From Candidatus Heimdallarchaeum aukensis (GTDB lineage Archaea; Asgardarchaeota; Heimdallarchaeia; Heimdallarchaeales; Heimdallarchaeaceae), in the NCBI GenBank assembly GCA_021513695.1, contig CP084166.1, positions 2,624,001 through 2,688,000 of the forward strand: a DNA stretch of 64,000 bases, in the 5' to 3' direction. Below are positions 2,047 to 26,490 of the stretch, piece after piece; the stretch's first letter is position 1, and each line of letters starts with the position of its first letter. The notes under the pieces are model-generated. The model saw only the letters and a list, made by a program, of their open reading frames with translations, made no database searches and had not been told where the DNA came from. A program made the position numbers and the translations under genes.

Positions 2047-3333
2047 TTGATAAAGCATCTACTTATCCTAACAACATATGGGCAAATATTTTATAGTCAA
2101 GAATTTGGAACAGAAGAAACAGTGGATGTCGCTTTAACAGGAGGGCTAATGTCTGCAATATACTCCATGGCTACAGAAACTCAAAGAGAAAATATCACTG
2201 AATTTGAAATGATGACATCCAGAATCAAATTTAGAGAAGAAGAAAATGATCTATTATTTGTCCTTACTGTTGATAAGCGTATGGATGAAAAAGATGTAGA
2301 AGACTTACTTGATATGATCTCCAAAAGATTTTTTGAAAAATACGGAGAACTTCGAGTAGATGGACTTATTTTGAGTGATTTTGAAGAAGATGTCACTGAA
2401 ATTATAAATAAAAAATTATGGTACCTTGAAACCTCAAAAAGAAAGTTCAGGTTCTTTGATTACTTAGCTTTAATTGCTACTTCAGTAATATTAGGTTGGT
2501 ATATTTACTTATTGTTCAATATTCCCGGTTTTGTATGGTCCCCCTTGTTGAAAAGGTTATCTCAACCTGTAGACTTCGTACTGTATCTCTTAATTTTGAT
2601 GGCTTCTTTTTCTTTACCAGGATTAGCGTTGTATTTTATCTTGAAATATTCACACATTAAGGATATATTCAGGTTCTCAAAGGATTATTTAACAAGACCA
2701 ACAAGAGCAAGCTATGCAGAACTTTTACCAAACTACTTTTTACTAAGTATAGTCATTTCATATGTTATTTACTTTAGTTTTATGATATTCAGCAAGGCCT
2801 ACTTTTCAGAAATTACTGCTTTTCCGATGTACCCTGGAGCATTATTAGGTTCAGATTATGCACAACCTTTCTCCTTTAGTAATATTAGTAACTCTGATAT
2901 AGGTGATCAAGTGTTAGTAGGTTCGTTCACTTGGTTTAGCTGGGTTTTCTTATGTCCCCTTATCTATTCTTTGATTCTTGGAGAAAAAGAAAGGTGGAAA
3001 CTACTCAGAAATAGCATCTTTATTGCATCATTAGCTATAACTGTATTAATTGGCTGTTTAGTTGTAGGAGGAGTAATTTACCTACAAGCGGTTGGTTTTC
3101 ACCCAACAAATCCTGTTCTTTTTGCAGAAGATGTTTCATCTCTATTATATCAATTCGTTGCTCGTTTTCCATTGAACATCTTTTTCTATGGGTTTCTTTT
3201 ATTCCTAGGTGTTGGAATAAATAGAGTTACACCACCAAAGACAAAAGTTTCTTCACTTCTCGCTATTTGGGTATCAATTTACCTTACACTTATCATTCAA
3301 CGCTTATTCTCTGATCTATGGGCTGGAAGCTAG
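2047..3333 (+). CDS. Roadblock/longin-like N-terminal domain fused to a polytopic (~8 TM) membrane domain
   Basis: TTG start. The first ~100 aa (LLILTTYGQIFYSQEF...GGLMSAIYSMATE...LLFVLTVDK...) have a beta-alpha-beta-beta-alpha pattern typical of the Roadblock/LC7/MglB fold. The remainder is hydrophobic helices. Confidence 0.45.
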   Translation: MIKHLLILTTYGQIFYSQEFGTEETVDVALTGGLMSAIYSMATETQRENITEFEMMTSRIKFREEENDLLFVLTVDKRMDEKDVEDLLDMISKRFFEKYGELRVDGLILSDFEEDVTEIINKKLWYLETSKRKFRFFDYLALIATSVILGWYIYLLFNIPGFVWSPLLKRLSQPVDFVLYLLILMASFSLPGLALYFILKYSHIKDIFRFSKDYLTRPTRASYAELLPNYFLLSIVISYVIYFSFMIFSKAYFSEITAFPMYPGALLGSDYAQPFSFSNISNSDIGDQVLVGSFTWFSWVFLCPLIYSLILGEKERWKLLRNSIFIASLAITVLIGCLVVGGVIYLQAVGFHPTNPVLFAEDVSSLLYQFVARFPLNIFFYGFLLFLGVGINRVTPPKTKVSSLLAIWVSIYLTLIIQRLFSDLWAGS

Positions 3334-3399: not shown

Positions 3400-4554
3400 A
3401 TGCTCTCATTTAGTGTTCTATTCTTTTTCCATAATAAAAAAAGAACTTACCAAGCAATATTAGTACTCTCTCTTTCCTTAGTAATCTATATTTCAACTAC
3501 TCTTCTGGTGAGAGGTTATTCTTCAAATCTTTCAGGAATGGCTAATATTATTGCTCCATCAGATGAATATATTATAATAGAAAAGGAAAAGTCACTATCT
3601 GAAAGTAGAATTGAAAATCAAACTATTGATTTTCTTCATGATTATGCAGAAAAAACTCCAAATATAAAAGCAATTGTCGCATACAAATATGTACCGATAA
3701 TTATAGAAGGAGAAAATGGTAGAATTAAGGAAACTTATCTTCGTTTATTGAATTTTACTTATTTTAATTCGTATTATCCTCGGGAGTATGTTTATTCGTT
3801 TGAAAATCCAGGTTCTGATGAGCTTATTTTAGGAAGATACTTAGCTTCTTTGTTATCTGCTGATAAAAACTCAGTAGTTGATGTTTATCTTCCAACCATC
3901 AATTTTAACACATCTCTTGTAATTTCTAATATAATAACTAACAGCGATGAATTTGAACTCGAAATAATTGCGAGCTTTAACAGCATTTTGAACTCACACT
4001 TTGATTATTTCTCTTTTGTTGAAATAAAAATTAAAGACCCTTCAACTATTTCTGCTATTCAAGAGGATATTAAAGAAAAGTATCCTGAGCTTGATGTAAT
4101 AAGTGAAAAGCAAACTCAAGAATTTATTATTTATGGCACAAATGATATCATACAAACTCTTACTCTATTACAATCCTTATTTTTCATTTTAATGCTTGTT
4201 TCAATTACGTATAGCATTTATACGTTAGTAAAAGAAAGTGAAAAAGAAATTTTTATTCTCCGTTCTATAGGGGCCACCAATTTAAATATTATTAGCCTTT
4301 TTCTTCTCCAATCATTGTATATAGGAATAATTTCAGCATTCTTGGCTTTAATTGGTGGATTTTTATTTATTGTTTCCATTGTTTCGGCAGTAACAGCTTT
4401 TTCTCATCTTCCTTATATTTCTGTCACAATATATTCAAAGTTAATTGTAATTATTTTTGGTTTTTCAATAGGTTTGTCAATATTATCAGGAATAATACCT
4501 TCTTTCCTTGCGTCAAAAATAAGATTACTTAAGGAGGATGAAATTGTTGTTTAA
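3400..4554 (+). CDS. MacB/FtsX-family permease-like membrane protein (N-terminal TM, extracytoplasmic domain, C-terminal 4-TM FtsX-type domain)
   Basis: C-terminal ILRSIGATNLNIISLFLLQSLYIGIISAFLALIGG... matches the FtsX/MacB permease core (R/K-x-IG-A motif). Overlaps the next gene by 17 nt. Confidence 0.55.
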   Translation: MLSFSVLFFFHNKKRTYQAILVLSLSLVIYISTTLLVRGYSSNLSGMANIIAPSDEYIIIEKEKSLSESRIENQTIDFLHDYAEKTPNIKAIVAYKYVPIIIEGENGRIKETYLRLLNFTYFNSYYPREYVYSFENPGSDELILGRYLASLLSADKNSVVDVYLPTINFNTSLVISNIITNSDEFELEIIASFNSILNSHFDYFSFVEIKIKDPSTISAIQEDIKEKYPELDVISEKQTQEFIIYGTNDIIQTLTLLQSLFFILMLVSITYSIYTLVKESEKEIFILRSIGATNLNIISLFLLQSLYIGIISAFLALIGGFLFIVSIVSAVTAFSHLPYISVTIYSKLIVIIFGFSIGLSILSGIIPSFLASKIRLLKEDEIVV

Positions 4555-7500
4555 CCTTAGACATACTTTCCTATACAATATCTTACCAAAAAAGAGATTA
4601 CTAATAGCTTTTATTGGTTTTTTCATTAGTTCAGTAGTTATATCTGGTGGATCAATATTAATGTATAGTATTGTTTCTTCTACTACAACGTACCTTGGTG
4701 AGAGTGATGATGTCCTTATAATAACGAAAGAAGGTTCTACAACTCCCTATACAAGCCAATTGCCTTTAGACTTTGTTGAAGCAGTGAAATTTGTACCTGG
4801 AGTAGTTGAAGTGTGTCCAGAGGTTTTAACTGCAGCAGTATATAAAAATAAGGCTATTTATTTTAGGGGAGTAGATACATATAGTTTTTGGAATTTTACT
4901 CCTTATACTTTAATTGATGGAGTATTATTAGATGACAAAGATACCTTTAATGTTACGATTGGATTAAATTTTGCAAAAAAGCATAAATTGGAGGTTGGAG
5001 ATTTCATAACTATTTATTCTACAAAAACAACTTCAGCTATTGAATTAAGAGTAAAATCTATTATTTACACGGGCACACTTCTAGATGATGAACTAGTAGC
5101 TCCATTAGCAATTGGACAATTTTTAACTTTTAATTCTTTCAACTATATTACTCATGTAAGAGTAAGAATTGATTTATTAAAAACTACAAAAGAAAAAGTG
5201 AAAAGTATAGTATCGAATAGTTATAAAATTAAAGTTGGAGTACGAACCTTTAATGAAACACAAGAGCTTAATGCTACTGTTTTCGTTCAAGATTTGCGTG
5301 GACAAAAAATTAACACAACTGAAATTGTAAACTCAAATTCTATGATGTTTGAACTCCCATTTAGGATGTATGAAATTTATGCACAGATAGGAAATTTCAA
5401 GTCAAATAAAACACAAATATTACCTGGAATCGACTTAGAGGTTAACCTTCTTATTCCTTATTTAGAAAGAGTTCTGAATTTTACTATTTTAACTGAAGAA
5501 AAAGAACCCATAGAAAACGCAAAAATAAGCTTAACTAGCGAAGATTTTGATGTTTATTCTTATACTGATGAAATAGTATTGTATTCAAATTCTAAAGGAA
5601 AAGCAGTTGTCACTGTCAGTAATGGTACGTATTCTGCTGTTATCTCTTATAAAAGATTCAATAAGAAAATCAGTTTTGCAACTCAGGAAAATAATGAATT
5701 TGAAATAACATTAATAAAGAAACATCCAGACTTACAAGTTAAATTTCCACAAAATAACTCTATAATACATGGTACAACACTTAATCTCTCTTTTGTTAGT
5801 TCTCCTGGTTATTCAATATATTATTACTTTGATGGCGATGGATCCAACACTTATACTTATTATAGTGAGTATACTAATCTACTAGTTCCTGATTTTATTT
5901 TACACAAATTTTCAGGAGAAGCAGGAGAACACACGCTTACGGTTTATACAAAAAATTCTTATTATTCAGGAAACGTGTCAGAATATTTTAATTCAACAAT
6001 TATTTATTTCACTATAATTGACCCACCTGAAACTTTAGAATTTGAAAATGTTTCAGATATGTCTAATTTAGAGCCCAATCAAGTACTGAAAGTAAACTTA
6101 CCATTTAACTATTCATATTATACCCCTTCTTATAGATGGGACGATAAAGAGTGGATAAGTATGAATAATAATCAGATCGTTGCAGAAACAACAATAGGAT
6201 TGCATAAGTTAGAAATTAAACTTAAAACGAATACTAAGCAAAAGAGCTATTTCTATTATTTCTCTATTTCAGAAAACAATTACAATTTTGGATTGTATAA
6301 CTTATCGTATCATAAAAGAATAAAACCAAATTCAATTTTTAAGGTTTGGTTTAATAATCTAACAGAACCACTCTTCTATAGTTGGGATAATCGTAGTTCA
6401 AATAATTTATTTGAACACGAATATATTTTAACAACAGGTTTATCAGAAGGGAGCCATTCATTAACCATTGGATTCCAAAAAGATGGGCTATGGAACAATA
6501 GAAGTTACAATGTAATTATTGACGCTAGTATTCCAAATGTTTCTCTTTCAGTAACAAATAATTCTATTCTAAATTCAGGAGAGTTTTTGAGCGTTTTTTC
6601 AAATGAAACAATTAATAATCTTGCATTTTCATGGGATAATCAAAAATATTCTCTATCTTATGGCAACAAAATCCCAACCCCTTATACAAACGGTACGCAT
6701 ACTCTAAGTTTGATTGGTTATGATTTAGCAGGTAATAAATTTAGTTTATTTTACAATTTCATTATTGTTAATCAAACAACTGTCAATCTATATGACTTCT
6801 TTTTGTCAAACGAATATTCAGGGTTGATCAATCAAACATTTATTGAACTCGAAATTTATTCTCCACCTAGTGTTTCAACTATAACCTATGAATTAGAAGG
6901 AATGCTAAATATTTCAGGAAATTACACAGAAAAACAACTATTTCATCTTTATTCTGGAAAATATAATTTAACAATTAAACTCTTCAACAACTCTCAGATT
7001 ATAGGTTACAGAAATTGGTCTTTTTATGTAATGGATGGATACAACAAATCATTCATTTCTTACTATGATTTACCACAAAATAATGATTTAGAAGATGTTG
7101 TGATCTACTTCCCAGAATTCGATGTTTCATATAAATTAGATGAATCATCAACAATATTTATTACAGATAATATATGGTCTTCAATTATTTTGTCTAACAA
7201 TTCCACTAACAACTTATTTTCATATTTGTTTGTTGATACACAACCACCTAGTGTTTCTATACTTTCACCAGATAAAGGGTCTGATCTTGCAAATATATGG
7301 TTGGATTTAAAAACAGAAGCTGTAGAAGTTTTTTACAAAATTGATTCTTTAACAACATTTACTAAATATTACTCTCCCGTAGTTATATCTAATTTATCAA
7401 TAGGAGAACACAAATTATATTTAACTTTGTATGATAGTTTGAAGAATAAGAAGGAACTTACATATACTTTTTCTATAGGAATCGAATATTCTCTCGTTAA

Positions 7501-8752
7501 TTTAACTTTTGTTTATTCTGAAATAGGAAATATTACTCTAGCCCCAAATTATGAATTTAAAGTTCGTTCTATTTGGAATAAAACTTTAATTTCTCTACAA
7601 TCAAATAACAATGGAACTTCACTATTTAAAATTTTGAAAGGACAATTTTATTTGTACATCACTTATGATAATACAACATTTGTATTTACAATCAATGCAA
7701 TAAGTAATATTAAAAAAACTATATTTCTTGGAAAAACAAATTTGACATTATCGTTTATTGATGTCTATGCGAATCTGCCAATATCACACCAGTACTTCAA
7801 TATTTACGATTATACAGGATTACTAATAAAAAGACTAAAAACAAATAGTACAGGAGAAACAGAAGTGTCTTTGGACACAGGCATTTATTCTGTGGAATAT
7901 GAAGTGCTTGATAATATTTATTCTTTTTATATTTATGTTTTTGAGGGAACGCAATCTTATACTTTTTATGTACCTTCACAGCCTGAAGCAATTAGTTTAA
8001 CTTTTATATTTAGCAATAACACTCAGGCCAAAAACTTGCCAATAATTGTTGAAACTGAGTTTTTTGGAAATATTAGTTTTTATACAGATATTAACGGAGA
8101 ATACATTTTGTTGCTACCTTATCAAAAAATAGTTATACATGTTTTTTCACCTTCAGGAAGAAGATTAATATCTTTAACTAGATATATCGAACCAGGTATT
8201 TCCTCTCTTAAAATCGTTATTCCTAGTGAAAAGAGTTCTACTTATCAAGAATTGCCCTTTCAGAATATAGGTGGATCTTTTGAAATACTTGTAAGTTTAT
8301 CTTCAGAGTATATGGAACATTATCTAAAGGGTTCTCTGCTTTTTACATATACTTTGGCTTATGCTGAAATTATCCTAATTGTATTAATTGTAAGTGCTAA
8401 CTTATACGCTATTTTGAGAAATATAAACACAGAAAGTAGAAAAGAAATAAGAATTGCTGAAATGATAGGTGCTACTCATTCTCATATTATGTTTTCTATT
8501 TTTTCCAGATTGGTTATTTTAACCTCTTTCTCCTATATTATCGGTTATTTTGTGGGGAACGAAATTCTTAAATTGTTAGCTATGAAGAACAAAACCGTAT
8601 TCTTTGGTCATACATTTATCCCAAAAGGTAACTTATATATTTTTGTTATATGTTATTTCTTAATTTTAATAATTGTAAGTGTAACAACATTATTCTTGGT
8701 TGTCTTACATAGAAAAAATGAGAAAAATAGAAAGGAAAAACATAAACTCTAA
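4538..8752 (+). CDS. Giant (1404 aa) FtsX/MacB-family membrane protein with a very large extracellular beta-rich region carrying >40 N-x-S/T sequons. Probable N-glycosylated surface protein.
   Basis: Perfect SD AAGGAGG at 4531-4537. N-terminal TM plus a MacB-periplasmic-like segment. Long middle region with Ig/CarboxypepD_reg-like beta repeats and dozens of NxT/NxS. C-terminal RIAEMIGATHSHIMFSIFSRL... is a 4-TM FtsX motif. Confidence 0.55.
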   Translation: MKLLFNLRHTFLYNILPKKRLLIAFIGFFISSVVISGGSILMYSIVSSTTTYLGESDDVLIITKEGSTTPYTSQLPLDFVEAVKFVPGVVEVCPEVLTAAVYKNKAIYFRGVDTYSFWNFTPYTLIDGVLLDDKDTFNVTIGLNFAKKHKLEVGDFITIYSTKTTSAIELRVKSIIYTGTLLDDELVAPLAIGQFLTFNSFNYITHVRVRIDLLKTTKEKVKSIVSNSYKIKVGVRTFNETQELNATVFVQDLRGQKINTTEIVNSNSMMFELPFRMYEIYAQIGNFKSNKTQILPGIDLEVNLLIPYLERVLNFTILTEEKEPIENAKISLTSEDFDVYSYTDEIVLYSNSKGKAVVTVSNGTYSAVISYKRFNKKISFATQENNEFEITLIKKHPDLQVKFPQNNSIIHGTTLNLSFVSSPGYSIYYYFDGDGSNTYTYYSEYTNLLVPDFILHKFSGEAGEHTLTVYTKNSYYSGNVSEYFNSTIIYFTIIDPPETLEFENVSDMSNLEPNQVLKVNLPFNYSYYTPSYRWDDKEWISMNNNQIVAETTIGLHKLEIKLKTNTKQKSYFYYFSISENNYNFGLYNLSYHKRIKPNSIFKVWFNNLTEPLFYSWDNRSSNNLFEHEYILTTGLSEGSHSLTIGFQKDGLWNNRSYNVIIDASIPNVSLSVTNNSILNSGEFLSVFSNETINNLAFSWDNQKYSLSYGNKIPTPYTNGTHTLSLIGYDLAGNKFSLFYNFIIVNQTTVNLYDFFLSNEYSGLINQTFIELEIYSPPSVSTITYELEGMLNISGNYTEKQLFHLYSGKYNLTIKLFNNSQIIGYRNWSFYVMDGYNKSFISYYDLPQNNDLEDVVIYFPEFDVSYKLDESSTIFITDNIWSSIILSNNSTNNLFSYLFVDTQPPSVSILSPDKGSDLANIWLDLKTEAVEVFYKIDSLTTFTKYYSPVVISNLSIGEHKLYLTLYDSLKNKKELTYTFSIGIEYSLVNLTFVYSEIGNITLAPNYEFKVRSIWNKTLISLQSNNNGTSLFKILKGQFYLYITYDNTTFVFTINAISNIKKTIFLGKTNLTLSFIDVYANLPISHQYFNIYDYTGLLIKRLKTNSTGETEVSLDTGIYSVEYEVLDNIYSFYIYVFEGTQSYTFYVPSQPEAISLTFIFSNNTQAKNLPIIVETEFFGNISFYTDINGEYILLLPYQKIVIHVFSPSGRRLISLTRYIEPGISSLKIVIPSEKSSTYQELPFQNIGGSFEILVSLSSEYMEHYLKGSLLFTYTLAYAEIILIVLIVSANLYAILRNINTESRKEIRIAEMIGATHSHIMFSIFSRLVILTSFSYIIGYFVGNEILKLLAMKNKTVFFGHTFIPKGNLYIFVICYFLILIIVSVTTLFLVVLHRKNEKNRKEKHKL

Positions 8753-8764
8753 AAACTAATTTCC

Positions 8765-11563
8765 TTACTTTATAACAAATCCATTTATCCCATAAGTAAA
8801 CCAACTATTATTGTAATAATATATGTTCAATCCATTTGTTGAAAGAGTTGAAACATGGTAATTAAGTTTTTCAATTTCATTTGTATATGAGTGGAAATAG
8901 GATATGGAAATATCGATCGAGTATATTGTGTAAGAACTCTGTTCCAATGATAAAAGTGTAAATTGGTTGAATGTTTCTCCTTCTGGTTTTTCCATTGAAT
9001 AATTTAGCACGGAGAATCGCCTAGTATGATTTGAAAAAGTAGAATATTTTGTAGAAATTGTGATATTAAAAGGCTGATTTGTTGGTATTGCTGTGAAGTC
9101 TTGAATGAGGTTAATTTGAGCATAACTGCCGTCTATGGGCGTATTATGGAAATTATTGGTGAATAAGCTCGTTTTACTATTATTGTTCATTAGAAGAAAA
9201 TCCACGGGTCCGATATAGGGATTGTTAAAATCGTAATCATTGAATGTGTATAATAAATACTCGTCATTATAAAAATTCAAAGTAAATAATTTGTTGTTTG
9301 CTAGTATTCTAAAGATATAATACTTCCAATAAATTTTTTCTATAAAGGCCTTGTACCAATCATTTTTTTGATTATGTGAAACAAAAATTGAAACATTGTA
9401 TTTATTGAAGAAATCAAAGAGTTTTGTTACATTTTCTCTATCTAAATATATTTTTTCTCCTATTTCTGAATTTTCTATGAAACTAAGAACAAAAACATCT
9501 ATTGTTGGTTGAGAAACATAGTATTCCAAGCCTGGAGTGTTAATTGATAATATTGTTTCCCAATCTGAAGACCCAAGTCTGTTAATAGCATCTTTCAATT
9601 CTTCATAGTTTGTTCTAGTGTAGTAGCTATAGCGAAGTTGATATTCATTAATATCAAATTTACAATAAGTAATCAGTGCAGCTTGAGCAGCCATTGGAAC
9701 AAATATTAATACAAAAAGTAAAAAGGTTGTAGCCATTCTCTGAATACGTTTTTTCTTTTTAAAACTTTTACTAAAACTAAGATTCCAACTTTTTTCTTTC
9801 CAAATAAACAAAAACACTATCAAAGTCAATAATAAAGAAAACGCAATAATAGTTCCAATGTGTGTGTGAGCTTTATACCAACGCTCATGAAAATTAGTAA
9901 TTACGCTAACTTCAAAAGGGAGGACTGGATAGAGCGATAAAAAGGCTGTTAAAGCAAAGAAAATAAAAGCAAAAAATCCATCACTTTGAAGTTTAAACTT
10001 TTCATTGAAGAAATTAATTATTTCTTTGAAACCAAACACTACAATTATCGTTAGTGGTACAACGATTGGGGAAAGATAGCGAATAGAGCCTAAAGCAAAA
10101 AAACCTTGCCAGAAAATATAGAAGAATATTAACCAGATGATTAATCCATTCTTTTTATCTTTATGAGTTTTATATAATCCTATAAGCTTTACAAATAACC
10201 ATGAAGGAGCAAACATTGTTGCAATTAAAATAGCAAATGTTGAAGTTACAAAAGTTGCAGAATGAGCATTTTCTAGGTAAGTTTCAACCAAAGGAAGACC
10301 TATACCTTCCCAATTAAGATTAAAAGAAGCGTTTTTAGGGTCCCAATAAGTGCTTCTTAGCATTTGTTCAACACCAGCTATTTTTAACATGTGTCGAGCC
10401 CAAAAATAACCTACAAAAATAGGGAAAGAAAAGATTACTGCAGTAAAAAGCCATCTTTTATATGAAAAAATTAATGTTTTAGATTGGATGATTACTGTTA
10501 CACAATAAATTGCAGCTAATACAATAAAAATTGATGTACCTACATAAATATCAAATAACGATTTTCTTACTATCTGAACGACAAACCCAAAAACAAGTAA
10601 AACTCTTAAAACTTTCCCGATTTTATCTGAATCCATCGCAGTAAAAATAATTAGGGGAATTACAAATCCACTCATTTTACTTAAAACACAACCAGCAAAA
10701 GATACAGACGTCAAAAGAGTATATAGGATTTGATCTTTATTTTCAGTGCTTTTTAAAAATTTCTTGTAATAGTAATAGGAAGAAGTAGTAAAGAACATGA
10801 TGTAAATTTCTTGGTAATATTGATATTCATAAATAAGAAAATACACAAAAGGAGTTACTAAAAAAGCAATCGTAGCCATATTTGAGTATTTTTCATTTAA
10901 TCCCTCAATTTTAGCAATTTTGTAACATAGATAAACAGTTAAACTAAAGAATAACATAGGAACTAATTGTATCATTTCAGTTAATGTGATGAAAAATGTA
11001 AAGGAATAAAGCATTACATTTAGTGGTGGTTTAAACATTGGAAGAAAGTTTAGTTCATTGATTTTTCCTAACTCACCTGTAGCAAAGATTCTAAAAGCAT
11101 TAGGGAGATAAAAGTGGAGTGCATCCCACCCTCTAATTGGTGAAACAAGTGCTTGAAAAGTGTAAGCACCAAGCATTAGACAAATAACCACAATTAGAAT
11201 TTTATTAATACTCTTCTCATACTTATATTGCCCTCTTAAAACTGTTTTAGGAAGAACCTTTATTATGAAATAAAACAAATAATAAAGGAAAACTGCAATA
11301 CTTATAGTTAGAAAAGTGTAAACGAAATTACTCATTAATTGTTTTGTTAGTTGACTAGGATAATAATAAGCTAAAAGACCACAAAAAATCATAGGGCCAA
11401 CGAGAGAGATTGATCCTAATACCGTTGAATCAAGGATATGTTCAAAAAATGTCTGTTTTTTTTCATTTTTTAGTAGTTTGTTGATAATTGATACTTCGAT
11501 TGAACCAAATGAAATTATAGAAATAACAGGTAAAATAACTCTGATGTCAAGCATAAATGTCAT
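8765..11563 (-). CDS. Large polytopic membrane protein (~13 TM N-terminal half, ~300-aa sequon-rich extracytoplasmic C-terminal half). Candidate GT-C-fold glycosyltransferase or oligosaccharyltransferase-like.
   Basis: 932 aa with many TM helices followed by a soluble NxS/T-rich domain. Its start overlaps the stop of the upstream GT2 gene (ATGA). No canonical WWDYG motif was seen, so the GT-C/AglB assignment is inference only. Confidence 0.3.
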   Translation of the reverse strand: MTFMLDIRVILPVISIISFGSIEVSIINKLLKNEKKQTFFEHILDSTVLGSISLVGPMIFCGLLAYYYPSQLTKQLMSNFVYTFLTISIAVFLYYLFYFIIKVLPKTVLRGQYKYEKSINKILIVVICLMLGAYTFQALVSPIRGWDALHFYLPNAFRIFATGELGKINELNFLPMFKPPLNVMLYSFTFFITLTEMIQLVPMLFFSLTVYLCYKIAKIEGLNEKYSNMATIAFLVTPFVYFLIYEYQYYQEIYIMFFTTSSYYYYKKFLKSTENKDQILYTLLTSVSFAGCVLSKMSGFVIPLIIFTAMDSDKIGKVLRVLLVFGFVVQIVRKSLFDIYVGTSIFIVLAAIYCVTVIIQSKTLIFSYKRWLFTAVIFSFPIFVGYFWARHMLKIAGVEQMLRSTYWDPKNASFNLNWEGIGLPLVETYLENAHSATFVTSTFAILIATMFAPSWLFVKLIGLYKTHKDKKNGLIIWLIFFYIFWQGFFALGSIRYLSPIVVPLTIIVVFGFKEIINFFNEKFKLQSDGFFAFIFFALTAFLSLYPVLPFEVSVITNFHERWYKAHTHIGTIIAFSLLLTLIVFLFIWKEKSWNLSFSKSFKKKKRIQRMATTFLLFVLIFVPMAAQAALITYCKFDINEYQLRYSYYTRTNYEELKDAINRLGSSDWETILSINTPGLEYYVSQPTIDVFVLSFIENSEIGEKIYLDRENVTKLFDFFNKYNVSIFVSHNQKNDWYKAFIEKIYWKYYIFRILANNKLFTLNFYNDEYLLYTFNDYDFNNPYIGPVDFLLMNNNSKTSLFTNNFHNTPIDGSYAQINLIQDFTAIPTNQPFNITISTKYSTFSNHTRRFSVLNYSMEKPEGETFNQFTLLSLEQSSYTIYSIDISISYFHSYTNEIEKLNYHVSTLSTNGLNIYYYNNSWFTYGINGFVIK

Positions 11564-13224
11564 TTTTTCTCTCCTTCATATTCTTTAATAACATCTGCAG
11601 CGCTTTTGGTAGATCTTGCCTTTTTAAGGAATTCTAATTCTTTGAAGTATGTGACAGTTATTATTGCAGGTACTGATAAAGATATTGCTGACATGATAAA
11701 CCAGCCAACTAAAGGATCGGGTGGAAAAGATAAGAATGATTGAACAATAGCATAATAAAATGGGATAGAAAGTAATAAGAGAACAAAAGACCAAATAGAA
11801 TATTTTATCTTTTCACTCATCTTACCTAATGTTTTAGGTTTTTTCTTAATTGTTCTTCTGAACTCTTTCTTTATTCCCAGAAAAGCACTAATTACAGCCC
11901 ATAAAAGAAAAGATTGTGCAGTTAACATTAAAATATAAAAAGCAGTAATTGTCCAAATTCCACCCCAAAATCCCCTCAAACGTATCATTCGGTCTTCTTT
12001 TTCTTCTCTTATCCAAGTAACGATCCCCATAACTAAATTTGCAAAAGCAACAAGAATAGGTGCCAAAATAAGTAAAGGAATAACTTCTGCAATGTTTGAC
12101 CTAATAAAGGGAACTTTCAAGAAGTAATTACATAAGAGAATAAAGAAATTAGCAAACCACATGCTTACTCCAATAGCAGGAAGAACAGAGGTTACTACCA
12201 TATCTATTTTGTTTAAAAATGAACCTTTACCTCGTAGAACGAATATTGTTCTTTTCACAAAAATCTGTGAAATCCCATAAGTCCATCTCCACACTTGATT
12301 TATCATTCCTATAGGTGTCCAGGGTACTAAACCATTACTACATATTTCATGAATGTAATTGGATTTGTAACCTTTTGCAATAAGAACGAATGATGTATCT
12401 GTATCTTCTGCAAGGGTATCTTCTAAAAATCCTCCAACTTCTTTAACTAACTTAGTTTTGAATACTCCAGTTGTTCCTGCAAAAACTACTCCATGACGTG
12501 TGGCACGACTTTTTTGCATTATGTGAAAAAATTGACTGTGAATAAATGCACTGCTTCTTTGCATGTAATTATCTTGATTAACAAACATAGGTTTTCCTTG
12601 AACAAAAATAATTTTTTCATCAGTAAAACCAGATAAACAAGTTTTCAAAAAATTCTCTGTTGGAATATGATCAGAATCTAACAAAGCAATATAGTCACTT
12701 GAAATTTGTTTTAAAGCATTATTAATTGCTCCAGCCTTGAACCCTTTTCTGTTTTCTCTATGTATATATTTTACATTCTTTTTTTGGCAAAAATCTCTTA
12801 ATTCGTTATTTTCTCCTTCTGGTGTATCATCTGCTATAATAACCTCAAAAAAGTTTTTAGGGTAATCAACATTTAATGCTCCCTCTATTGTTTGAGATAA
12901 AACTACTAAAGGTTCCTTATATGCAGGAATAATTATTGAAACAGAAGGTATTTTCTCTTTTTCAGAAAAAGAAAAACTTCCAGTAATCGGAATTTTATAG
13001 TCAGAAGAAGAACCAATATAATAATAAATGAAAATAGAATAAAAGGCACTAAATAATTCTATAAACAGTATAGCGAAATTTTCGATAACGATAAGAATAT
13101 TTTTTGTTCCTCCATTCATCTTTGCATATTGAACAATAAGAATTGAACTTGAAATAATATAGTATAATAGAAATCCAAATAGTAAATAAAACAAAATATA
13201 CCAAATTACTTTTACTTTAGACAT
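11560..13224 (-). CDS. Processive family-2 glycosyltransferase (cellulose/chitin-synthase-like beta-glycan synthase) with N- and C-terminal TM helices
   Basis: Contains IIIPAYKEP...IIADDT (DxD), LLDSDHIP, LAEDTDT (TED) and QVWRWTYG (QxxRW), the hallmark motifs of processive GT2 synthases. Flanked by TM segments. Confidence 0.7.
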   Translation of the reverse strand: MSKVKVIWYILFYLLFGFLLYYIISSSILIVQYAKMNGGTKNILIVIENFAILFIELFSAFYSIFIYYYIGSSSDYKIPITGSFSFSEKEKIPSVSIIIPAYKEPLVVLSQTIEGALNVDYPKNFFEVIIADDTPEGENNELRDFCQKKNVKYIHRENRKGFKAGAINNALKQISSDYIALLDSDHIPTENFLKTCLSGFTDEKIIFVQGKPMFVNQDNYMQRSSAFIHSQFFHIMQKSRATRHGVVFAGTTGVFKTKLVKEVGGFLEDTLAEDTDTSFVLIAKGYKSNYIHEICSNGLVPWTPIGMINQVWRWTYGISQIFVKRTIFVLRGKGSFLNKIDMVVTSVLPAIGVSMWFANFFILLCNYFLKVPFIRSNIAEVIPLLILAPILVAFANLVMGIVTWIREEKEDRMIRLRGFWGGIWTITAFYILMLTAQSFLLWAVISAFLGIKKEFRRTIKKKPKTLGKMSEKIKYSIWSFVLLLLSIPFYYAIVQSFLSFPPDPLVGWFIMSAISLSVPAIITVTYFKELEFLKKARSTKSAADVIKEYEGEKK

Positions 13225-13250: not shown

Positions 13251-14849
13251 TTAATTAATTTCATAAATATTATTCTTTTTAGTTTTACTCATAAAATAAA
13301 GAGATAAAGGTGTAGTTAATAACATCGAAGAACCTAATACACCTAATCCTAGCCAGAAGGCCCCACTAAAAGAGTTGTTGAGGAAGTCTAGCACAGAACA
13401 GGCAATCATTATTCCTCCAACAATGGTAACAAAAACAAGATAAGAATAAATTGGGACTCTCTCATTCCACTTGTCTTTCCCCTTAATAGGTTCTCTATTG
13501 GATATAAGAGATTTAAAAGAAGCATAAATTGTAAAAGGATTAAAAACAAGTGCGAATAAATAAAAGTAAATTAAATCTCTATATCTATAATTCATGTGAT
13601 TTCTATTTGCAAAGCTTATTGAAAGAATACCTGAAAGATAATATGATAGGCTAAAGGACACTGGTATTATTAATAAAGGTAAGAAATCTTGAATTGGCGG
13701 ACGTATTAACGATATGTTGAAGAAAAACATAATTATATAGACAAATCCAGAGAAATAAAGAATAGAAGCCACTAAGAAAAGTGAGATGCTGAATAATAGG
13801 TCAATTTTGTCAAAAATTCCTAAATCAGAGCGTAATATTTCTCTCCATTTTTTAGTAAGAACCCTAAATTGACCTTTGGCCCACCTGATAATCTGTGAAA
13901 TGAGCACATCAAACTTTGCAGGAACAAGACCCAAACTTCCATATTCGTCTAAAAGCACACCCTTGTATTTTTCTTTAAGTATTTCAACAGTAGTGGCGAC
14001 ATCTTCAGTGAAAGAATAGATAGGAATTCCTCCAATCTCTTTAAGAACCTTTGTTCTAAAGCATGCAGATGAACCGTTGAAAATAGTTGTGTTTCTAACA
14101 CTTTTAGATCTGCCAAATATTTCGAAAAATTGGGTATACATCACAGATTCCCATAATTGTAATTTGGACTTAATTTCTCTAAAATTAACTTTTGTCTGGA
14201 CATATGCAATTTTATTATCTTTTTCTAGTATTCGTACACACTTTGAAAGAATACTTGGAAAAATTACATGATCATAATCTAAGAAAAAGATGAAATCTGT
14301 TTCTATGGTTTTTAAAATTTCGTTTAACATTCCCGCTTTGAAATACTTATTTGAAGACGAGAAAAAGTAATTAGCATTATAATGTTCAGCTAAATTCTTA
14401 ATTTTTAGCGCAAGTTCTTCGTTTAACGTATCATCGCCTATTATAATTTTAATCTTTGATTTTGGATAATCCATTTCATTAAGTGAGACTAGTGTTTCTT
14501 TTAACACGTCTATTATTGGGTTATGAACTGGAACAACTATTGTTACTTTGGGTAGTTCCTTGTTTTCGCTTTCTTGAGTTTCAAGATTGATTAATTGAGT
14601 GTGAAAACAACTATTTGCCATATGATAAAATAATAGTGTGGTATAAAAAATACCAAAAGTTTCAAAGAAAAGAGAAATAAAATTAAATATAATTTGAAAA
14701 GTTAAATTTGTAGTAATTTTTGAAACAAATAATGGATAAATATTTAGATACATTGACCATATAAGGTAAAAGCAACCTAGAACTAATGATGTTAATGTGA
14801 AAAAGTAGAGTAAAATTCCAACAAATTTCCATTTTTTACTAGGTTTCAT
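13251..14849 (-). CDS. Processive family-2 glycosyltransferase, paralog of the adjacent gene
   Basis: Contains TIVVPVHNP...IIIGDDT, FFLDYDH, FTEDVATT (TED) and QIIRWAKGQ (QxxRW). N-terminal and C-terminal TM helices. Confidence 0.7.
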   Translation of the reverse strand: MKPSKKWKFVGILLYFFTLTSLVLGCFYLIWSMYLNIYPLFVSKITTNLTFQIIFNFISLFFETFGIFYTTLLFYHMANSCFHTQLINLETQESENKELPKVTIVVPVHNPIIDVLKETLVSLNEMDYPKSKIKIIIGDDTLNEELALKIKNLAEHYNANYFFSSSNKYFKAGMLNEILKTIETDFIFFLDYDHVIFPSILSKCVRILEKDNKIAYVQTKVNFREIKSKLQLWESVMYTQFFEIFGRSKSVRNTTIFNGSSACFRTKVLKEIGGIPIYSFTEDVATTVEILKEKYKGVLLDEYGSLGLVPAKFDVLISQIIRWAKGQFRVLTKKWREILRSDLGIFDKIDLLFSISLFLVASILYFSGFVYIIMFFFNISLIRPPIQDFLPLLIIPVSFSLSYYLSGILSISFANRNHMNYRYRDLIYFYLFALVFNPFTIYASFKSLISNREPIKGKDKWNERVPIYSYLVFVTIVGGIMIACSVLDFLNNSFSGAFWLGLGVLGSSMLLTTPLSLYFMSKTKKNNIYEIN

Positions 14850-15035: not shown

Positions 15036-16070
15036 TTATTCTTCTTTTTCTTCTTCAAAAGGAACTTCTTCTATTTGTTCCTCTTTATCCTCATCTATCA
15101 TCTCTATTTTCTCATCTTCAGTCAGCCTTTTTTGTATTAATTGTTCAGGAGGTAAAAGAGCTTCTATTTGGTTTTTAGGAACTGGAGGTGGTACAAATCT
15201 TTTTACAAGATTTTGTATTTTTTCTTTTTCTTCAGTTAATTTTAGTTTATCACAGATTTCATAAAATTGTTCTTCAAATAAATATAATTCTTCGAGTAAA
15301 TCCTTATAGATTGTATTTAATTCTTTATCGCTCAATTTTGCTATTTCGTCAGAACATATTTCCTGAATATATTCCTTAAGAAAATCGTCGTCTTTTGTTT
15401 CTTCAGCAATGAAGAACATAAATTTGGAGATGTTAGGTTGAGTACCATGTACGGCAGTCTGAATGATTATTTTCTTATACTTTTTAGTTAAATATTCTCT
15501 AAATTCACCTTTTTCTATTTTTAAAGCATCTGATAATTCATCTTCCCAATTTTCATCCAATTTGGAAAAATTAAATGCTATTGCTGGTATAGTGTGTTTA
15601 ATAATAACTTCTCGATGCTTTGTTAAATCCTCTTCTGGTATAGCTTTTATATTTTTTAGAAATAAGTTGTAATATTGTATATTTCCTGAAATTTCGAAGT
15701 ATTTTAGTAATGGAATAACAACTTGTTGAGGTTCTAAATCTTTAAAATATAGTTTTAGTAAATATGGTCTAAAAATATAAGGAGCAACCATTAAAAGCAA
15801 CAATGGAATAAATAGATAAGAAATTGGGAATCTTAAAGCAAGTAAAATTACACTTACAACAATGATAATTGCGTATAGTCCATAATTAAAAAGTCTTAAT
15901 GTCTTTTTTGCATTATATCTATTAGCACAAATAGGACAAATTCGTTCTTGTTTCATATTATAATGTTGATCTAAATCACAAATTGCTAATTTACATTCAG
16001 TACACTTTTCAGTAGATTCATTATGAATATGAAAAGCACAATTTTCTTTTATTTCTCCATCAAAACTCAT
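15036..16070 (-). CDS. Hypothetical membrane protein with an N-terminal Cys/His zinc-ribbon (B-box-like), 2 TM helices and an acidic Glu-rich C-terminal tail
   Basis: CAFHIH...CTECKLAICDLDQH...CPICANRY cysteine/histidine pattern, then hydrophobic LYAIIIVVSVILLAL..LFIPLLLLMVAPYIF, ending EEVPFEEEKEE. Confidence 0.3.
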   Translation of the reverse strand: MSFDGEIKENCAFHIHNESTEKCTECKLAICDLDQHYNMKQERICPICANRYNAKKTLRLFNYGLYAIIIVVSVILLALRFPISYLFIPLLLLMVAPYIFRPYLLKLYFKDLEPQQVVIPLLKYFEISGNIQYYNLFLKNIKAIPEEDLTKHREVIIKHTIPAIAFNFSKLDENWEDELSDALKIEKGEFREYLTKKYKKIIIQTAVHGTQPNISKFMFFIAEETKDDDFLKEYIQEICSDEIAKLSDKELNTIYKDLLEELYLFEEQFYEICDKLKLTEEKEKIQNLVKRFVPPPVPKNQIEALLPPEQLIQKRLTEDEKIEMIDEDKEEQIEEVPFEEEKEE

Positions 16071-17894: not shown

Positions 17895-18770
17895 ATGAGT
17901 GATATACTTAATATTGTCCTTCTTGGCTTGGAAAACGCAGGGAAAACAACTCTTCTAAACACTTTAAAAGGAGAACAATTTAGAGACACAAGTACAACAA
18001 TTGGAATTAATGTAGACCTTATTAATTATAATGGATATAAATTTCAAGCAATTGATGTAGGAGGACAAAGAGTATTTCGAGACACATTATGGCCGCAATA
18101 TACGAAACTTGCTAGTGGAGTAATCTTTATTTTTGATATATTTGATAAAGGAAAGTTAAGCGAAGCAAAAAAATGGTTTGATGAAATCCAGACATGGGTA
18201 ACAAAAAAGGCTGTTTTTCTTTTTTTAGCAAATAAGATAGATCTAAAAGAAGAAAGAAAAGATTTTATGTCACTTGATGATGTAATAAAGAGCTTCAACT
18301 TAGAAAGATTTTCTCTTTATCCTGAGCAAAGTTTCAGAATTTTTGAAGTTTCAGCAAAAACTGGAGAAAATGTGGATGTGGCAATTAAATGGTTGTTTGA
18401 GAAATTGTCAGAGCAAGTTAGAAAACAAACAAATCTTTCTTTCATATTCGTCCATAATAGTGATTTTGAATTAATATATGTTAATTCTGAAAAAGTGAAG
18501 GTTTTAGAAAAACTACTGTTAAAACATGTTTCTCAACTTAGAAAAAATAACATGAAAACTTCATTTCTAAATGTCGATGAGTATAAATTATTTTTTTATG
18601 TTGAACCTCAATTCAGCATTATTTTTGGGGCAAAAAATATATACAAACAGTTCTTCCTAAATGTAGCCTTAGAAATAGCTAATGAGCTTAAAACAAACCA
18701 TCTGCCATTAACTGAATATAAACCAGAACTTGATGGAATAATAAGTAGAATTTTAATAAAGGAAAAATAA
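17895..18770 (+). CDS. Small Ras/Arf-superfamily GTPase fused to a C-terminal roadblock/longin-like domain
   Basis: G1 GLENAGKTTLLN, G3 DVGGQ, G4 ANKIDL and G5 SAKTG fall in the first ~170 aa. The last ~120 aa (FIFVHNSDFELIYVN...KLFFYVEP...FLNVALEIANEL) show a beta-alpha-beta-beta-alpha pattern. Confidence 0.6.
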   Translation: MSDILNIVLLGLENAGKTTLLNTLKGEQFRDTSTTIGINVDLINYNGYKFQAIDVGGQRVFRDTLWPQYTKLASGVIFIFDIFDKGKLSEAKKWFDEIQTWVTKKAVFLFLANKIDLKEERKDFMSLDDVIKSFNLERFSLYPEQSFRIFEVSAKTGENVDVAIKWLFEKLSEQVRKQTNLSFIFVHNSDFELIYVNSEKVKVLEKLLLKHVSQLRKNNMKTSFLNVDEYKLFFYVEPQFSIIFGAKNIYKQFFLNVALEIANELKTNHLPLTEYKPELDGIISRILIKEK

Positions 18771-25851: not shown

Positions 25852-26490
25852 CTAATCATACAACTCTCGTTTAATAGTCTCAAAGATTCCATCTATTCTG
25901 TCGTACATTTCCTCTCCGCCTTTTAAAGCAGAGATAGCTTCCCAACCATGAAATGATTTCGGATAACGTTCTTTTAGATGTTCCCAAGCAGCTTTGAAGT
26001 TTTCTCTCAAGTATTCATCTGCTTTTGCCTTGCTAAAATCGAGTAAGTCAATTTTATTGACTACTAGGAAAAAGATAGCTTTGATTTTTCTTGCCTTGCG
26101 CTCAGCTTTGACAATATCATCATCTAAAGTCATAAGAAAATAATTGCTAACTTGAGTTAAAGCATCAATTTGAACTTTAGTGTCTTGAGTGGGATCAATC
26201 ATAAAGATTATACCATTAGTTTTATAGTCTTGCATTGCTTTTTTCCAATAAGGCCATAAAGACATATCTCCAGGACAGTCTACTGCCATAACTTTGTAAG
26301 TTCTGTATTTTTCTAAGCTCAAAGAAGATTTGTATTGTTGGCTTTTTAGCTTTATACGCTTAGAATGCACTTCAATTTGCGTAGTTGGACTTATATCTTC
26401 TATTTCTTCTCCCTTGATTCTTTTAATTAGAGTAGTTTTACCCACTCCTGTTGCACCTAAAACTGTGATTGATAATTCACGAGTTAACAT
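25852..26490 (-). CDS. Small GTPase (Arf/Rag-like, Ras superfamily)
   Basis: G1 GATGVGKTTLIKR, DCPGD, the LWPYW switch-II region resembling Arf's LWRHY, and NKIDLL (NKxD). Confidence 0.65.
   Translation of the reverse strand: MLTRELSITVLGATGVGKTTLIKRIKGEEIEDISPTTQIEVHSKRIKLKSQQYKSSLSLEKYRTYKVMAVDCPGDMSLWPYWKKAMQDYKTNGIIFMIDPTQDTKVQIDALTQVSNYFLMTLDDDIVKAERKARKIKAIFFLVVNKIDLLDFSKAKADEYLRENFKAAWEHLKERYPKSFHGWEAISALKGGEEMYDRIDGIFETIKRELYD

What the first reader, a model, noticed from the sequence alone, without database searches (positions are those of the whole stretch)
3400..8752. Two FtsX/MacB-type permease genes with no ABC ATPase nearby, one carrying a ~1,100-residue sequon-dense extracellular region
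Established knowledge: FtsX/MacB permeases normally work with a cytoplasmic ABC ATPase (FtsE, MacB NBD or LolD) encoded adjacently. Here a 384-aa FtsX-type protein and a 1404-aa FtsX-type protein are co-translated (17-nt overlap, perfect AAGGAGG SD at 4531-4537). No Walker A/B ATPase gene is present within 10 kb on either side. The large protein inserts ~1,100 beta-rich residues with more than 40 N-x-S/T sequons between its first TM and the C-terminal 4-TM FtsX core. That suggests a heavily N-glycosylated surface structure anchored by an FtsX fold. It could be a mechanotransmission-type module (as in MacB/LolCDE/FtsEX) repurposed as an S-layer-like or adhesin display platform.
Basis: partly seen in the sequence, partly recalled or inferred. 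Interest (0 to 1): 0.55.

Follow-up and report, generated by a model that had tools for sequence, protein, structure and literature searches.

The report
Asgard FtsX pair lacking linked ATPase
Two coupled genes of an Asgard archaeon encode a Lol/MacB-type membrane pair whose large subunit carries a roughly 1,000-residue sugar-site-rich chain of about 12 beta-sandwich domains; across Asgard archaea it never sits near an ABC ATPase gene but usually sits next to glycosyltransferase genes, so it is a candidate cell-surface glycoprotein machine.

Summary

No ABC ATPase lies from 10 kb upstream to 55 kb downstream, nor in about 36 related Asgard loci. Four non-Asgard controls all show one.

The nearest non-Asgard homolog (Geothermarchaeales) has an ATPase-S-L operon. 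The cytoplasmic coupling-helix motif is the best conserved block in S and among the best in L. The family therefore descends from a true ABC system. An ATPase encoded elsewhere is the most likely power source, but I could not test this.

The conserved partners are a convergent GT-C-fold glycosyltransferase and processive-type GT2 synthases. This points to cell-surface glycan or glycoprotein assembly.

Verdict: a new variant of a known kind, of moderate interest. The ATPase-free display-platform reading is not excluded and not shown.

The parts
3400..4554 (+). S: small FtsX/LolC-E-like permease, 384 aa. TM1 is at 3454-3510, the extracytoplasmic domain at about 3517-4149, TM2 at 4174-4230, the coupling-helix loop at 4231-4299 and TM3-TM4 at 4306-4497.
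   Evidence: Pfam FtsX 4.9e-12. The family profile hits PDB LolF, LolC and LolE at 5.5e-15 to 1.7e-10, including the periplasmic domain. The block E279-T293 is invariant in 31 orthologs. It aligns with the LolC/LolE coupling-helix region.
4531..4537 (+). AAGGAGG Shine-Dalgarno-like box inside the last codons of S. It drives coupled translation of L.
   Evidence: Sequence. A GGAGG-like box lies upstream of the L start in most orthologous loci. Spacing to ATG 4538 is 0 nt, and 6 or 9 nt to TTG 4544 or 4547.
4538..8752 (+). L: giant FtsX-type permease, 1404 aa as called. The likely start is TTG 4544 or 4547.
   Evidence: Pfam FtsX 9.5e-11 and MacB_PCD 2.1e-5. There are 32 orthologs of about 1,100-1,445 aa, all Heimdallarchaeia by the names their sources give. 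The protein is 100% identical to an NCBI 'ABC transporter permease' of Ca. Heimdallarchaeum aukensis.
4601..5254 (+). L TM1 (4601-4657) and a complete MacB/Lol-type periplasmic core domain (residues 55-239, 4700-5254).
5255..8257 (+). L inserted array: about 12 all-beta sandwich domains (residues about 240-1240) with 40 of the 43 sequons. It lies between the last strand of the core domain and the TM2 stalk.
8294..8713 (+). L stalk, TM2, coupling-helix loop (8408-8485), TM3 and TM4, which together form the FtsX domain. The TM3-TM4 outer loop carries the conserved motif N-x-T-V-F-F-G-H-T-F-x-P.
   Evidence: Pfam FtsX at residues 1278-1393. hhalign to the S family gives probability 89%. Invariant residues are listed. 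This region is the most conserved part of L: TM2 0.85 and the coupling-helix loop 0.75 mean column identity.
8765..11563 (-). Conserved convergent neighbour: a 932-aa GT-C-fold membrane glycosyltransferase. About 600 residues are multi-TM, followed by a C-terminal outer alpha/beta and beta-sandwich domain.
   Evidence: AF2 pLDDT 82, pTM 0.82. Foldseek PDB hits: AglB 8.8e-7, ArnT 6.4e-6, DPY19, STT3, EmbC, AftA, Pmt4. 5 of 26 orthologs hit Pfam PMT. It lies next to L in the Heimdallarchaeaceae loci that extend past L, and in L008, L011, L012 and L046.
11560..13224 (-). GT2a: a 554-aa membrane GT2 with the processive-synthase motif QVWRW. It overlaps the GT-C start by 4 nt, so the two are in one operon.
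   Evidence: Pfam Glyco_tranf_2_3 1.3e-23 and a weak Cellulose_synt hit. Motif and TM segments. Conserved in most loci.
13251..14849 (-). GT2b: a 532-aa membrane GT2 with QIIRW. It is the first gene of the GT2b-GT2a-GT-C operon.
   Evidence: Pfam, motif, synteny.
2047..3333 (+). Frequent upstream partner: a 428-aa protein with a cytoplasmic longin-like N-terminal domain (about 125 aa) and a multi-TM body. Its stop lies 66 nt before S.
   Evidence: Fuz_longin_1 at 3.8e-4, below the Pfam cut-off but seen in 4 of 4 orthologs. Present upstream of S in 26 of the 29 Heimdallarchaeota loci, plus this genome, and in distant L011 (30% identity, 1e-59). Absent in L008, L010 and L012.

Best explanation
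S and L are the two membrane subunits of a Lol/MacB-type (type VII ABC) machine.

Shown: they are made together by coupled translation. Each has the FtsX layout of TM1, an outer core domain, and TM2-TM4. L carries about 12 extra beta-sandwich domains, looped out between its core domain and TM2 and studded with conserved N-glycosylation sequons.

Inferred: S and L pair like LolC and LolE into an eight-helix heterodimer. The array projects from the single Asgard membrane as a glycoprotein.

Inferred from conserved neighbourhood: the complex works with the adjacent GT2b-GT2a-GT-C operon in building or organising a cell-surface glycan or glycoprotein. The array may be the acceptor or scaffold. Alternatively the Lol-like core may handle a lipid-linked product from the outer leaflet, as Lol, Dev and Bce systems do.

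Inferred, not tested: power still comes from an ABC ATPase dimer docking on the conserved coupling helices. In Asgard archaea this ATPase is encoded elsewhere in the genome.
For: - Coupling: 17-nt overlap with a conserved SD box.
- Glycosylation: sequon excess of z 5.8, unique in the window. The excess is present in all 24 orthologs, 19 positions are conserved in at least half of them, and 3 are invariant.
- ABC ancestry: the Geothermarchaeales locus L045 has ABC_tran, then S-like, then L-like. The L-like protein is 31% identical to L residues 14-344 (E 1.5e-38) and the NBD is 36% identical to LolD.
- Coupling helix: the motif E-S-x-K-E-I-x-I-L-R-S-I-G aligns with LolC, LolE and a MacB-like permease. 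It is the most conserved block in S orthologs and among the best conserved in L orthologs, and it is the longest consensus block across distant Asgard S relatives. The role of this helix in ATPase coupling is described in PMC8277102.
- Glycan link: the GT-C fold of the neighbour and QxxRW in both GT2 proteins. The GT-C gene follows L in the Heimdallarchaeaceae loci that extend that far, and in L008, L011, L012 and L046. A GT2 is co-directional with S in Hodarchaeota L013. GT2 and GT4 genes flank the ATPase-bearing homolog L045.
Against: - No ATPase gene lies near the pair in any of about 36 Asgard loci, including 11 with a full 10 kb on both sides and this window with 55 kb downstream. ABC permease and ATPase genes are normally adjacent, so a permanently unlinked dedicated ATPase would be unusual.
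- I could not search the rest of the genome, so no candidate ATPase exists.
- The 1,000-residue insertion breaks the direct link between the core domain and the TM2 stalk that carries the mechanical stroke in MacB. Classic mechanotransmission to the core domain may therefore be impaired.
- The glycan link is by gene association only. The GT2 genes are missing in some loci (L004/L030, L008).
- The heterodimer is inferred, not modelled.
- Residues 1201-1404 of L were not modelled.
Confidence: 0.5

Rival explanations
1. ATPase-independent display platform. The ATPase was lost in the Asgard lineage. The S/L heterodimer now serves only as a double-ended membrane anchor for a glycosylated beta-sandwich coat or adhesin protein, one of the disordered surface proteins seen on Asgard cells.
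For: - No NBD in about 36 Asgard loci, while all 4 non-Asgard controls have one.
- An NCBIfam family of duplicated FtsX permeases, ADOP, exists. From my recollection of its description, it is named for lacking adjacent ATPases.
- Sequon density of 1 per 29 residues matches the 1 per 30-40 reported for S-layer glycoproteins (PMC11284389).
- Lokiarchaeum has no ordered S-layer but many protruding surface proteins (PMC9834061).
- The insertion uncouples the core domain from TM2.
- The array evolves faster than the core, as expected for an exposed surface part.
Against: - The cytoplasmic coupling-helix loop is the best conserved block of S and among the best of L, and it is canonical. This is hard to explain for a passive anchor.
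- The full Lol-like core domains of both subunits are also retained and conserved, at 0.75 mean column identity in L.
- The homologous pair in Geothermarchaeales still has its ATPase.
- Abundance and lattice formation are untested.
Confidence: 0.28
2. Conventional MacB/BceAB-like efflux or resistance transporter for peptides, lipids or toxins that shares an ATPase with another system. Under this reading the big ectodomain is only a shield or sensor, and the glycosyltransferase neighbours are coincidental.
For: The nearest solved relatives include MacB, YknZ, HrtB and Spr0695, which are efflux or resistance systems. Public annotation is 'ABC transporter permease'.
Against: - The neighbourhood with GT-C and GT2 genes is kept across lineages where S is only 22-30% identical, and in different gene arrangements.
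- No membrane-fusion protein, regulator or two-component system is linked to the pair.
- A 1,000-residue conserved glycosylated array has no precedent in efflux members.
Confidence: 0.1
3. The pair is driven or regulated by a different cytoplasmic partner. The upstream longin-domain membrane protein, perhaps with a small GTPase, would replace the ABC ATPase. This would make S/L a transmembrane link between Asgard GTPase signalling and the cell surface.
For: - The longin-TM gene sits 66 nt upstream on the same strand in 26 of the 29 Heimdallarchaeota loci, in this genome, and in distant L011.
- It has a longin-like N-terminal domain.
- Arf-family GTPase genes lie 4-5 kb upstream of S in L008, L011 and L046, and 9 kb beyond L here.
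Against: - The longin-TM gene is absent from L008, L010 and L012, which keep S and L.
- The longin hit is below the Pfam cut-off.
- Asgard genomes hold many small GTPases, so proximity may be chance.
- No precedent exists for a coupling helix docking on anything but an NBD.
Confidence: 0.07

Closest known systems
LolCDE lipoprotein-release complex (E. coli; PDB 7arh), and LolF
   Different: lolD lies between lolC and lolE, whereas no ATPase is linked here. The score is far below the lolCE equivalog cut-off, 52.7 versus 362 bits. Archaea have no outer membrane or LolA/LolB. L carries a 1,000-residue beta-sandwich array.
MacB of the MacAB-TolC pump (type VII ABC, mechanotransmission)
   Different: MacB has a fused N-terminal NBD, is a homodimer, and works with a membrane-fusion protein and TolC. 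None of these is present here.
Uncharacterised ABC_tran, S-like, L-like operon of Geothermarchaeales (L045, GCA_046757245.1)
   Same: True homolog of the pair: a small FtsX followed by a large FtsX with MacB_PCD and Ig-like or CarboxypepD_reg domains. Its L-like protein is 31% identical to L over residues 14-344. It is also embedded among GT2 and GT4 genes.
   Different: It keeps an ABC ATPase gene directly upstream. It comes from a different phylum (Thermoproteota). The L-like gene is cut by the contig end, so its full size is unknown.
ADOP family duplicated permeases (NCBIfam TIGR03434, Acidobacteria)
   Same: Two FtsX domains per functional unit. By my recollection of the family description, there are no adjacent ABC ATPase genes. 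Function is unknown.
   Different: ADOP has both FtsX domains in one polypeptide and is bacterial. Only a weak match is seen here, 26.8 versus 622 bits. It has no giant Ig-like array.
Archaeal S-layer glycoproteins and their anchors (for example SlaA/SlaB of Sulfolobus)
   Different: Those proteins are anchored by a single helix or a lipid, not by an FtsX heterodimer. Lattice formation and abundance are untested here. Asgard cells studied so far lack an ordered S-layer.

Membership tests
MacB/FtsX (type VII ABC) permease superfamily | FtsX C-terminal domain (TM2-TM4) matching Pfam PF02687 above the gathering score | tested here: met
   S scores 46.4 bits and L 42.2 bits against a cut-off of 25.5.
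MacB/FtsX (type VII ABC) permease superfamily | Four TM helices with a large extracytoplasmic domain between TM1 and TM2 | tested here: met
   Hydropathy gives S TM segments at 19-37, 259-277, about 310-328 and 348-366. L has TM segments at 22-40, 1267-1285, about 1317-1339 and 1370-1388. AF2 shows a TM1 helix followed by an outer domain.
MacB/FtsX (type VII ABC) permease superfamily | Periplasmic core domain: a Porter beta-alpha-beta pair split by a Sabre subdomain | tested here: met
MacB/FtsX (type VII ABC) permease superfamily | Major coupling helix in the cytoplasmic TM2-TM3 loop | tested here: met
   The motif aligns with LolC, LolE and a MacB-like permease. It is invariant in S orthologs (E279-T293) and conserved in L (E1299, S1300, E1303, I1306, G1311, T1313). 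This was tested at the sequence level only.
MacB/FtsX (type VII ABC) permease superfamily | Cognate ABC ATPase, fused or encoded next to the permease | tested here: not met
   None is fused. None lies from -10 kb to +55 kb here. None lies in about 36 Asgard loci, while 4 of 4 non-Asgard controls have one. Whether one is encoded elsewhere in the genome could not be tested.
LolCDE lipoprotein-release system | Score above the TIGR02212 (lolCE) equivalog cut-off | tested here: not met
   52.7 bits against 362.45.
LolCDE lipoprotein-release system | Heterodimer of two paralogous permeases | tested here: inconclusive
   Two paralogous, translationally coupled genes are always adjacent. The physical heterodimer was not modelled or measured.
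ADOP duplicated orphan permeases (TIGR03434) | Two FtsX domains in one polypeptide and a score above the family cut-off | tested here: not met
   There are separate genes with one FtsX domain each. The score is 26.8 bits against 622.3.
Archaeal S-layer glycoprotein | High density of N-glycosylation sites on an exposed beta-rich ectodomain | tested here: met
   42 sequons in 1,225 residues, or 1 per 29, with z of 5.8 and conservation across orthologs. These are sequons only; occupancy is unknown.
Archaeal S-layer glycoprotein | Forms a regular 2-D lattice and is a dominant cell protein | not testable with these tools
   This needs proteomics and cryo-ET of a Heimdallarchaeon.
GT-C glycosyltransferases (the 932-aa neighbour) | GT-C membrane fold | tested here: met
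   Foldseek top hits, all at probability 1.00, are AglB, ArnT, DPY19, STT3, EmbC and AftA, at 8.8e-7 to 5.5e-4. The model has pTM 0.82.
STT3/AglB oligosaccharyltransferase (the 932-aa neighbour) | WWDxG catalytic motif | tested here: not met
   There is no WWD in the sequence. The only invariant W-D is W146-D147 in the first outer loop. It should therefore not be filed as the general N-glycosylation OST.

The most novel reading that the evidence does not exclude
The Asgard S/L pair has truly lost its ABC ATPase. It now works as a nucleotide-independent transmembrane link. A Lol-like eight-helix core anchors a glycosylated multi-domain surface array at both ends. Its conserved cytoplasmic coupling helices would then dock a different partner, the upstream longin-domain membrane protein and perhaps a small GTPase. 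This would give Asgard archaea a eukaryote-flavoured route between surface contacts and intracellular trafficking or signalling modules.
Probability: 0.08. Interest if true: 0.85.

Novelty: new variant of a known kind. Interest (0 to 1): 0.5.

Why it matters
[quoted passage not shown] That envelope is thought to matter for the cell-cell contacts behind eukaryogenesis.

This locus offers a concrete candidate. It is a conserved, clade-wide, heavily sequon-loaded protein of about 1,400 residues, anchored by a Lol-like heterodimer, with a dedicated-looking GT-C and GT2 glycosylation operon beside it.

For ABC transporter biology it is a phylum-scale case of an FtsX pair separated from its ATPase gene, with a sister lineage that still keeps the ATPase. 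The question of whether such orphan permeases still use an ATPase can therefore be tested by comparison.

Tried and rejected
1. Finding the ATPase elsewhere in the genome was not possible.
2. A metagenome scan with the L045 ATPase returned only generic NBDs of at most 44% identity. None lay next to S- or L-like genes.
3. A broad Asgard S alignment (A8) was too diverse for the search for related loci. The closer alignment A2 was used instead.
4. The afdb50 fold library was unavailable.
5. Profile searches of the 428-aa and 932-aa neighbours against PDB sequences gave nothing useful. Structure prediction plus Foldseek was needed for the 932-aa protein.
6. Literature searches for FtsX plus Asgard, orphan FtsX permeases, and duplicated orphan permease found no paper on this family. 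One search was wasted on over-general terms.
7. Pseudogene or miscalled ORF: rejected. Both proteins are full length and conserved in more than 30 genomes.
8. The 932-aa neighbour as the general OST AglB: rejected, because it has no WWDxG motif.
9. The P0109 and P0111 N-terminal extension as a fused ATPase: rejected. It is a multi-TM segment with no P-loop.
The length or shape of the array could not be measured, and pTM 0.48 makes the domain arrangement unreliable anyway.
Full report
**Source and observation**

The window is low in GC (about 30%). It encodes Arf-family GTPases, a class I lysyl-tRNA synthetase and a longin-like protein. The large ORF is 100% identical to an NCBI protein of Candidatus Heimdallarchaeum aukensis on a 3.08-Mb contig, named 'ABC transporter permease'. 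This is therefore an Asgard archaeon.

S spans 3400-4554 (384 aa) and L spans 4538-8752 (1404 aa). They overlap by 17 nt, and AAGGAGG lies at 4531-4537. Both match Pfam FtsX above the curated cut-off. L also matches MacB_PCD at residues 23-194, just below the cut-off.

L has 43 N-x-S/T sequons, 42 of them in the ectodomain. Shuffling predicts 19.4 +/- 3.8. No other ORF in the window shows an excess, including a 4184-aa one. All 24 aligned orthologs show the same excess. Nineteen sequon columns are kept in at least half of them, and N245, N406 and N674 are invariant. This argues for real glycosylation sites rather than a composition effect.

Three corrections apply:
- The C-terminal core has three TM helices, not four. 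This is the normal FtsX layout of one plus three.
- The added region is about 1,000 residues, because residues 55-239 are a complete canonical core domain.
- The SD box touches ATG 4538 with no spacer. In orthologs a GGAGG-like box sits about 7-9 nt before an ATG that overlaps the S stop as ATGA. Their N-termini align to residue 5 of this ORF. TTG 4544 or 4547 is thus the likelier start.

The conserved SD and overlap indicate coupled, roughly equimolar synthesis of S and L.

**What the two proteins are**

A profile of 31 S orthologs hits solved LolF, LolC and LolE at 5.5e-15 to 1.7e-10. The match covers the periplasmic domain as well as the FtsX domain. S and L are related to each other in the FtsX domain (hhalign probability 89%).

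The remaining roughly 1,000 residues form about 12 beta-sandwich domains. They resemble transthyretin-like, CnaB, pilin, macroglobulin and Ig arrays. By profile self-comparison they fall into two repeat classes: D3-D6 and D9, versus D1, D2, D10 and D11.

The array is not inside the core domain. It is looped out between the last Porter strand (about residue 237) and the TM2 stalk (about residue 1253). Both ends of the array must therefore return to the membrane. The usual direct link from TM2 to the core domain is interrupted. Inter-domain geometry is unreliable (pTM 0.48) and residues 1201-1404 were not modelled.

**The ATPase question**

Several independent checks found no ABC ATPase near the pair:
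- A six-frame scan of the window for Walker A plus the ABC signature found none.
- The only P-loop ORFs are two Arf-like GTPases.
- The contig extends 6.6 kb further upstream and has no ABC gene there either.
- A genome scan with the S family returned 29 Heimdallarchaeota species representatives and one bacterial hit.
- Further look-ups gave more distant Asgard loci: L008/L009, L010 (Helarchaeota), L011, L012, L013 (Hodarchaeota) and L046.
- BLASTP with E. coli LolD and a bacterial MacB-type NBD found no ABC NBD in any Asgard locus.
- tblastn at E <= 1 with the Geothermarchaeales (L045) NBD also found none, across 43 loci and about 740 kb including redundancy.

The four non-Asgard controls (E. 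coli lolCDE, a bacterial MacAB-like locus, Tenacibaculum and Geothermarchaeales) each gave a strong NBD hit within a few kb. The lack of a linked ATPase is thus a conserved property of the Asgard family.

Two results argue against reading this as loss of ATPase dependence. First, the nearest non-Asgard relative found by an exhaustive profile search is from Geothermarchaeales. Its locus reads ABC_tran (229 aa, 36% identical to LolD), then S-like (379 aa), then L-like. The L-like protein has MacB_PCD plus Ig-like domains and is 31% identical to L over residues 14-344 (E 1.5e-38). The ancestral state of this exact two-permease architecture is therefore a normal ABC system.

Second, the cytoplasmic TM2-TM3 loop docks the ATPase in MacB/Lol systems. 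Here it has the canonical motif and length, and it aligns with LolC, LolE and a MacB-like permease. It is the most conserved block of S (E279-T293 invariant) and among the most conserved of L (TM2 0.85 and the loop 0.75, against 0.48-0.60 for the array). It is also the longest consensus block across Asgard S relatives that share only 19-30% identity.

I could not search the remainder of the genome. Whether a suitable orphan ATPase exists remains open.

**Genomic partners**

In Heimdallarchaeaceae the gene order is AdoHcyase, longin-TM protein, S, L, and then on the other strand GT-C, GT2, GT2. This order is kept in nearly all loci long enough to show it.

The 932-aa convergent gene (8765-11563) had no Pfam hit itself, but 5 of 26 orthologs hit PMT. 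Its AlphaFold2 model (pLDDT 82, pTM 0.82) matches AglB, ArnT, DPY19, STT3, EmbC, AftA and Pmt4. It is a GT-C-fold glycosyltransferase, a class that uses lipid-linked sugars on the outer face of the membrane. It lacks the WWDxG motif of STT3/AglB, so it is not the general oligosaccharyltransferase. Homologs follow L in the distant loci L008, L011, L012 and L046 as well.

Its start overlaps by 4 nt the end of a GT2 gene, which follows a second GT2 gene. Both GT2 proteins have flanking TM segments and a QxxRW motif (QVWRW and QIIRW). By established knowledge this motif marks processive synthases such as cellulose, chitin and hyaluronan synthases. In Hodarchaeota a GT2 of this type lies directly upstream of S on the same strand. 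The ATPase-bearing Geothermarchaeales operon is also preceded by GT2 and GT4 genes. The link to glycosyltransferases across different arrangements is the best clue to function.

The 428-aa upstream protein (2047-3333) has a longin-like cytoplasmic domain. The hit is below the cut-off but is seen in 4 of 4 orthologs. The rest of the protein is a multi-TM body. It is present in 26 of the 29 Heimdallarchaeota loci, in this genome, and in L011. It is absent from L008, L010 and L012, so it is a frequent but not obligate partner.

**Most likely mechanism**

I take S and L to form a LolC/LolE-like heterodimer. This is inferred from paralogy, coupling and constant adjacency. Its large subunit displays a glycosylated beta-sandwich array on the cell surface. 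The architecture is shown; glycan occupancy is inferred.

The complex probably acts with the GT2b-GT2a-GT-C operon in making or organising a surface glycan or glycoprotein (inferred from neighbourhood). The array may be the acceptor or scaffold. Alternatively the Lol-like core may take a lipid-linked product from the outer leaflet, as known relatives do with lipoproteins.

Energy most likely still comes from an ABC ATPase dimer encoded elsewhere (inferred from ancestry and coupling-helix conservation, confidence about 0.5). The main rival, at about 0.28, is that the ATPase was lost and the pair is a passive two-ended anchor for a coat or adhesin protein. This rival fits the universal absence of a linked ATPase and the broken link between TM2 and the core domain. 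It does not explain the strongly conserved cytoplasmic loop.

**Comparison with known systems and novelty**

The pair works like, and belongs to, the MacB/FtsX type VII superfamily by fold, topology and motif. It fails the lolCE equivalog threshold and the ADOP threshold. It fails the adjacent-or-fused ATPase criterion.

Public databases already label these genes 'ABC transporter permease' or 'FtsX-like permease'. Full-text searches found no paper describing this family, its giant array, its glycosyltransferase partners or its separation from the ATPase.

I rate it a new variant of a known kind. Interest is moderate (0.5). It is a plausible identity for some of the unidentified surface structures of Asgard cells, and a clean comparative system for orphan FtsX permeases. 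Function and energy source both remain inferred.

Noticed in passing
window 42811-55365 (-), with 41395-42801 (-) downstream: A 4184-aa ORF whose first ~520 residues are topoisomerase VI subunit B (weak HATPase_c hit plus Topo-VIb_trans at 3.5e-57). About 3,600 extra residues follow, containing HhH-like hits (RAD51D_N, RNA_pol_A_CTD). The Topo VI A/Spo11 gene comes directly after it. This is a giant Topo VI-B fusion.
   Followed up: no
window 2047-3333 (+): A membrane protein with a very conserved N-terminal longin-like domain (Fuz/Mon1/HPS1-type hit at 3.8e-4, seen in 4 of 4 orthologs) fused to a multi-TM body. It is encoded just upstream of the FtsX pair in most Heimdallarchaeota loci and in L011.
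   Followed up: partly
window 17895-18770 (+) and 25852-26490 (-); L008 5478-6293; L011 4649-5173; L046 6119-6604: Arf-family small GTPase genes recur within 4-9 kb of the FtsX pair in several distant Asgard loci. This may be chance, given how many such GTPases Asgard genomes hold.
   Followed up: no
window 4531-4547: The SD box has zero spacing to the called ATG of L. TTG 4544 or 4547 fits both the SD spacing and the ortholog N-termini better.
   Followed up: yes
L045 7225-7914: The ABC ATPase of the Geothermarchaeales S-L operon has an atypical signature motif (LSSGEQQ instead of LSGGQ) and Walker A sequence GRSGSGKT. A motif scan tuned to LSGGQ would miss it. The BLAST-based checks did not.
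   Followed up: partly
L010 10001-11701 (P0109) and P0111: In Helarchaeota the small subunit carries an extra ~188-residue N-terminal multi-TM extension, and the large subunit is shorter at 1214 aa.
   Followed up: no
window 8576-8611 (L residues 1347-1358): The short outer loop between TM3 and TM4 of L holds a nearly invariant motif, N-x-T-V-F-F-G-H-T-F-x-P, which includes a conserved sequon at N1351 (21 of 24 orthologs). This is unusual conservation for that loop.
   Followed up: no
window 15036-16070 (-): A 344-aa protein with an N-terminal Cys-rich zinc-ribbon-like segment, TM helices and a very acidic tail. It has no Pfam hit. It is encoded just upstream of the GT2 operon, with ORFs of similar size at the same place in L003 and L006.
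   Followed up: no
window 55504-58440 (-): A 978-aa protein with an LVIVD repeat hit and a weak CD36-family hit (3.5e-5). It may be another surface protein.
   Followed up: no
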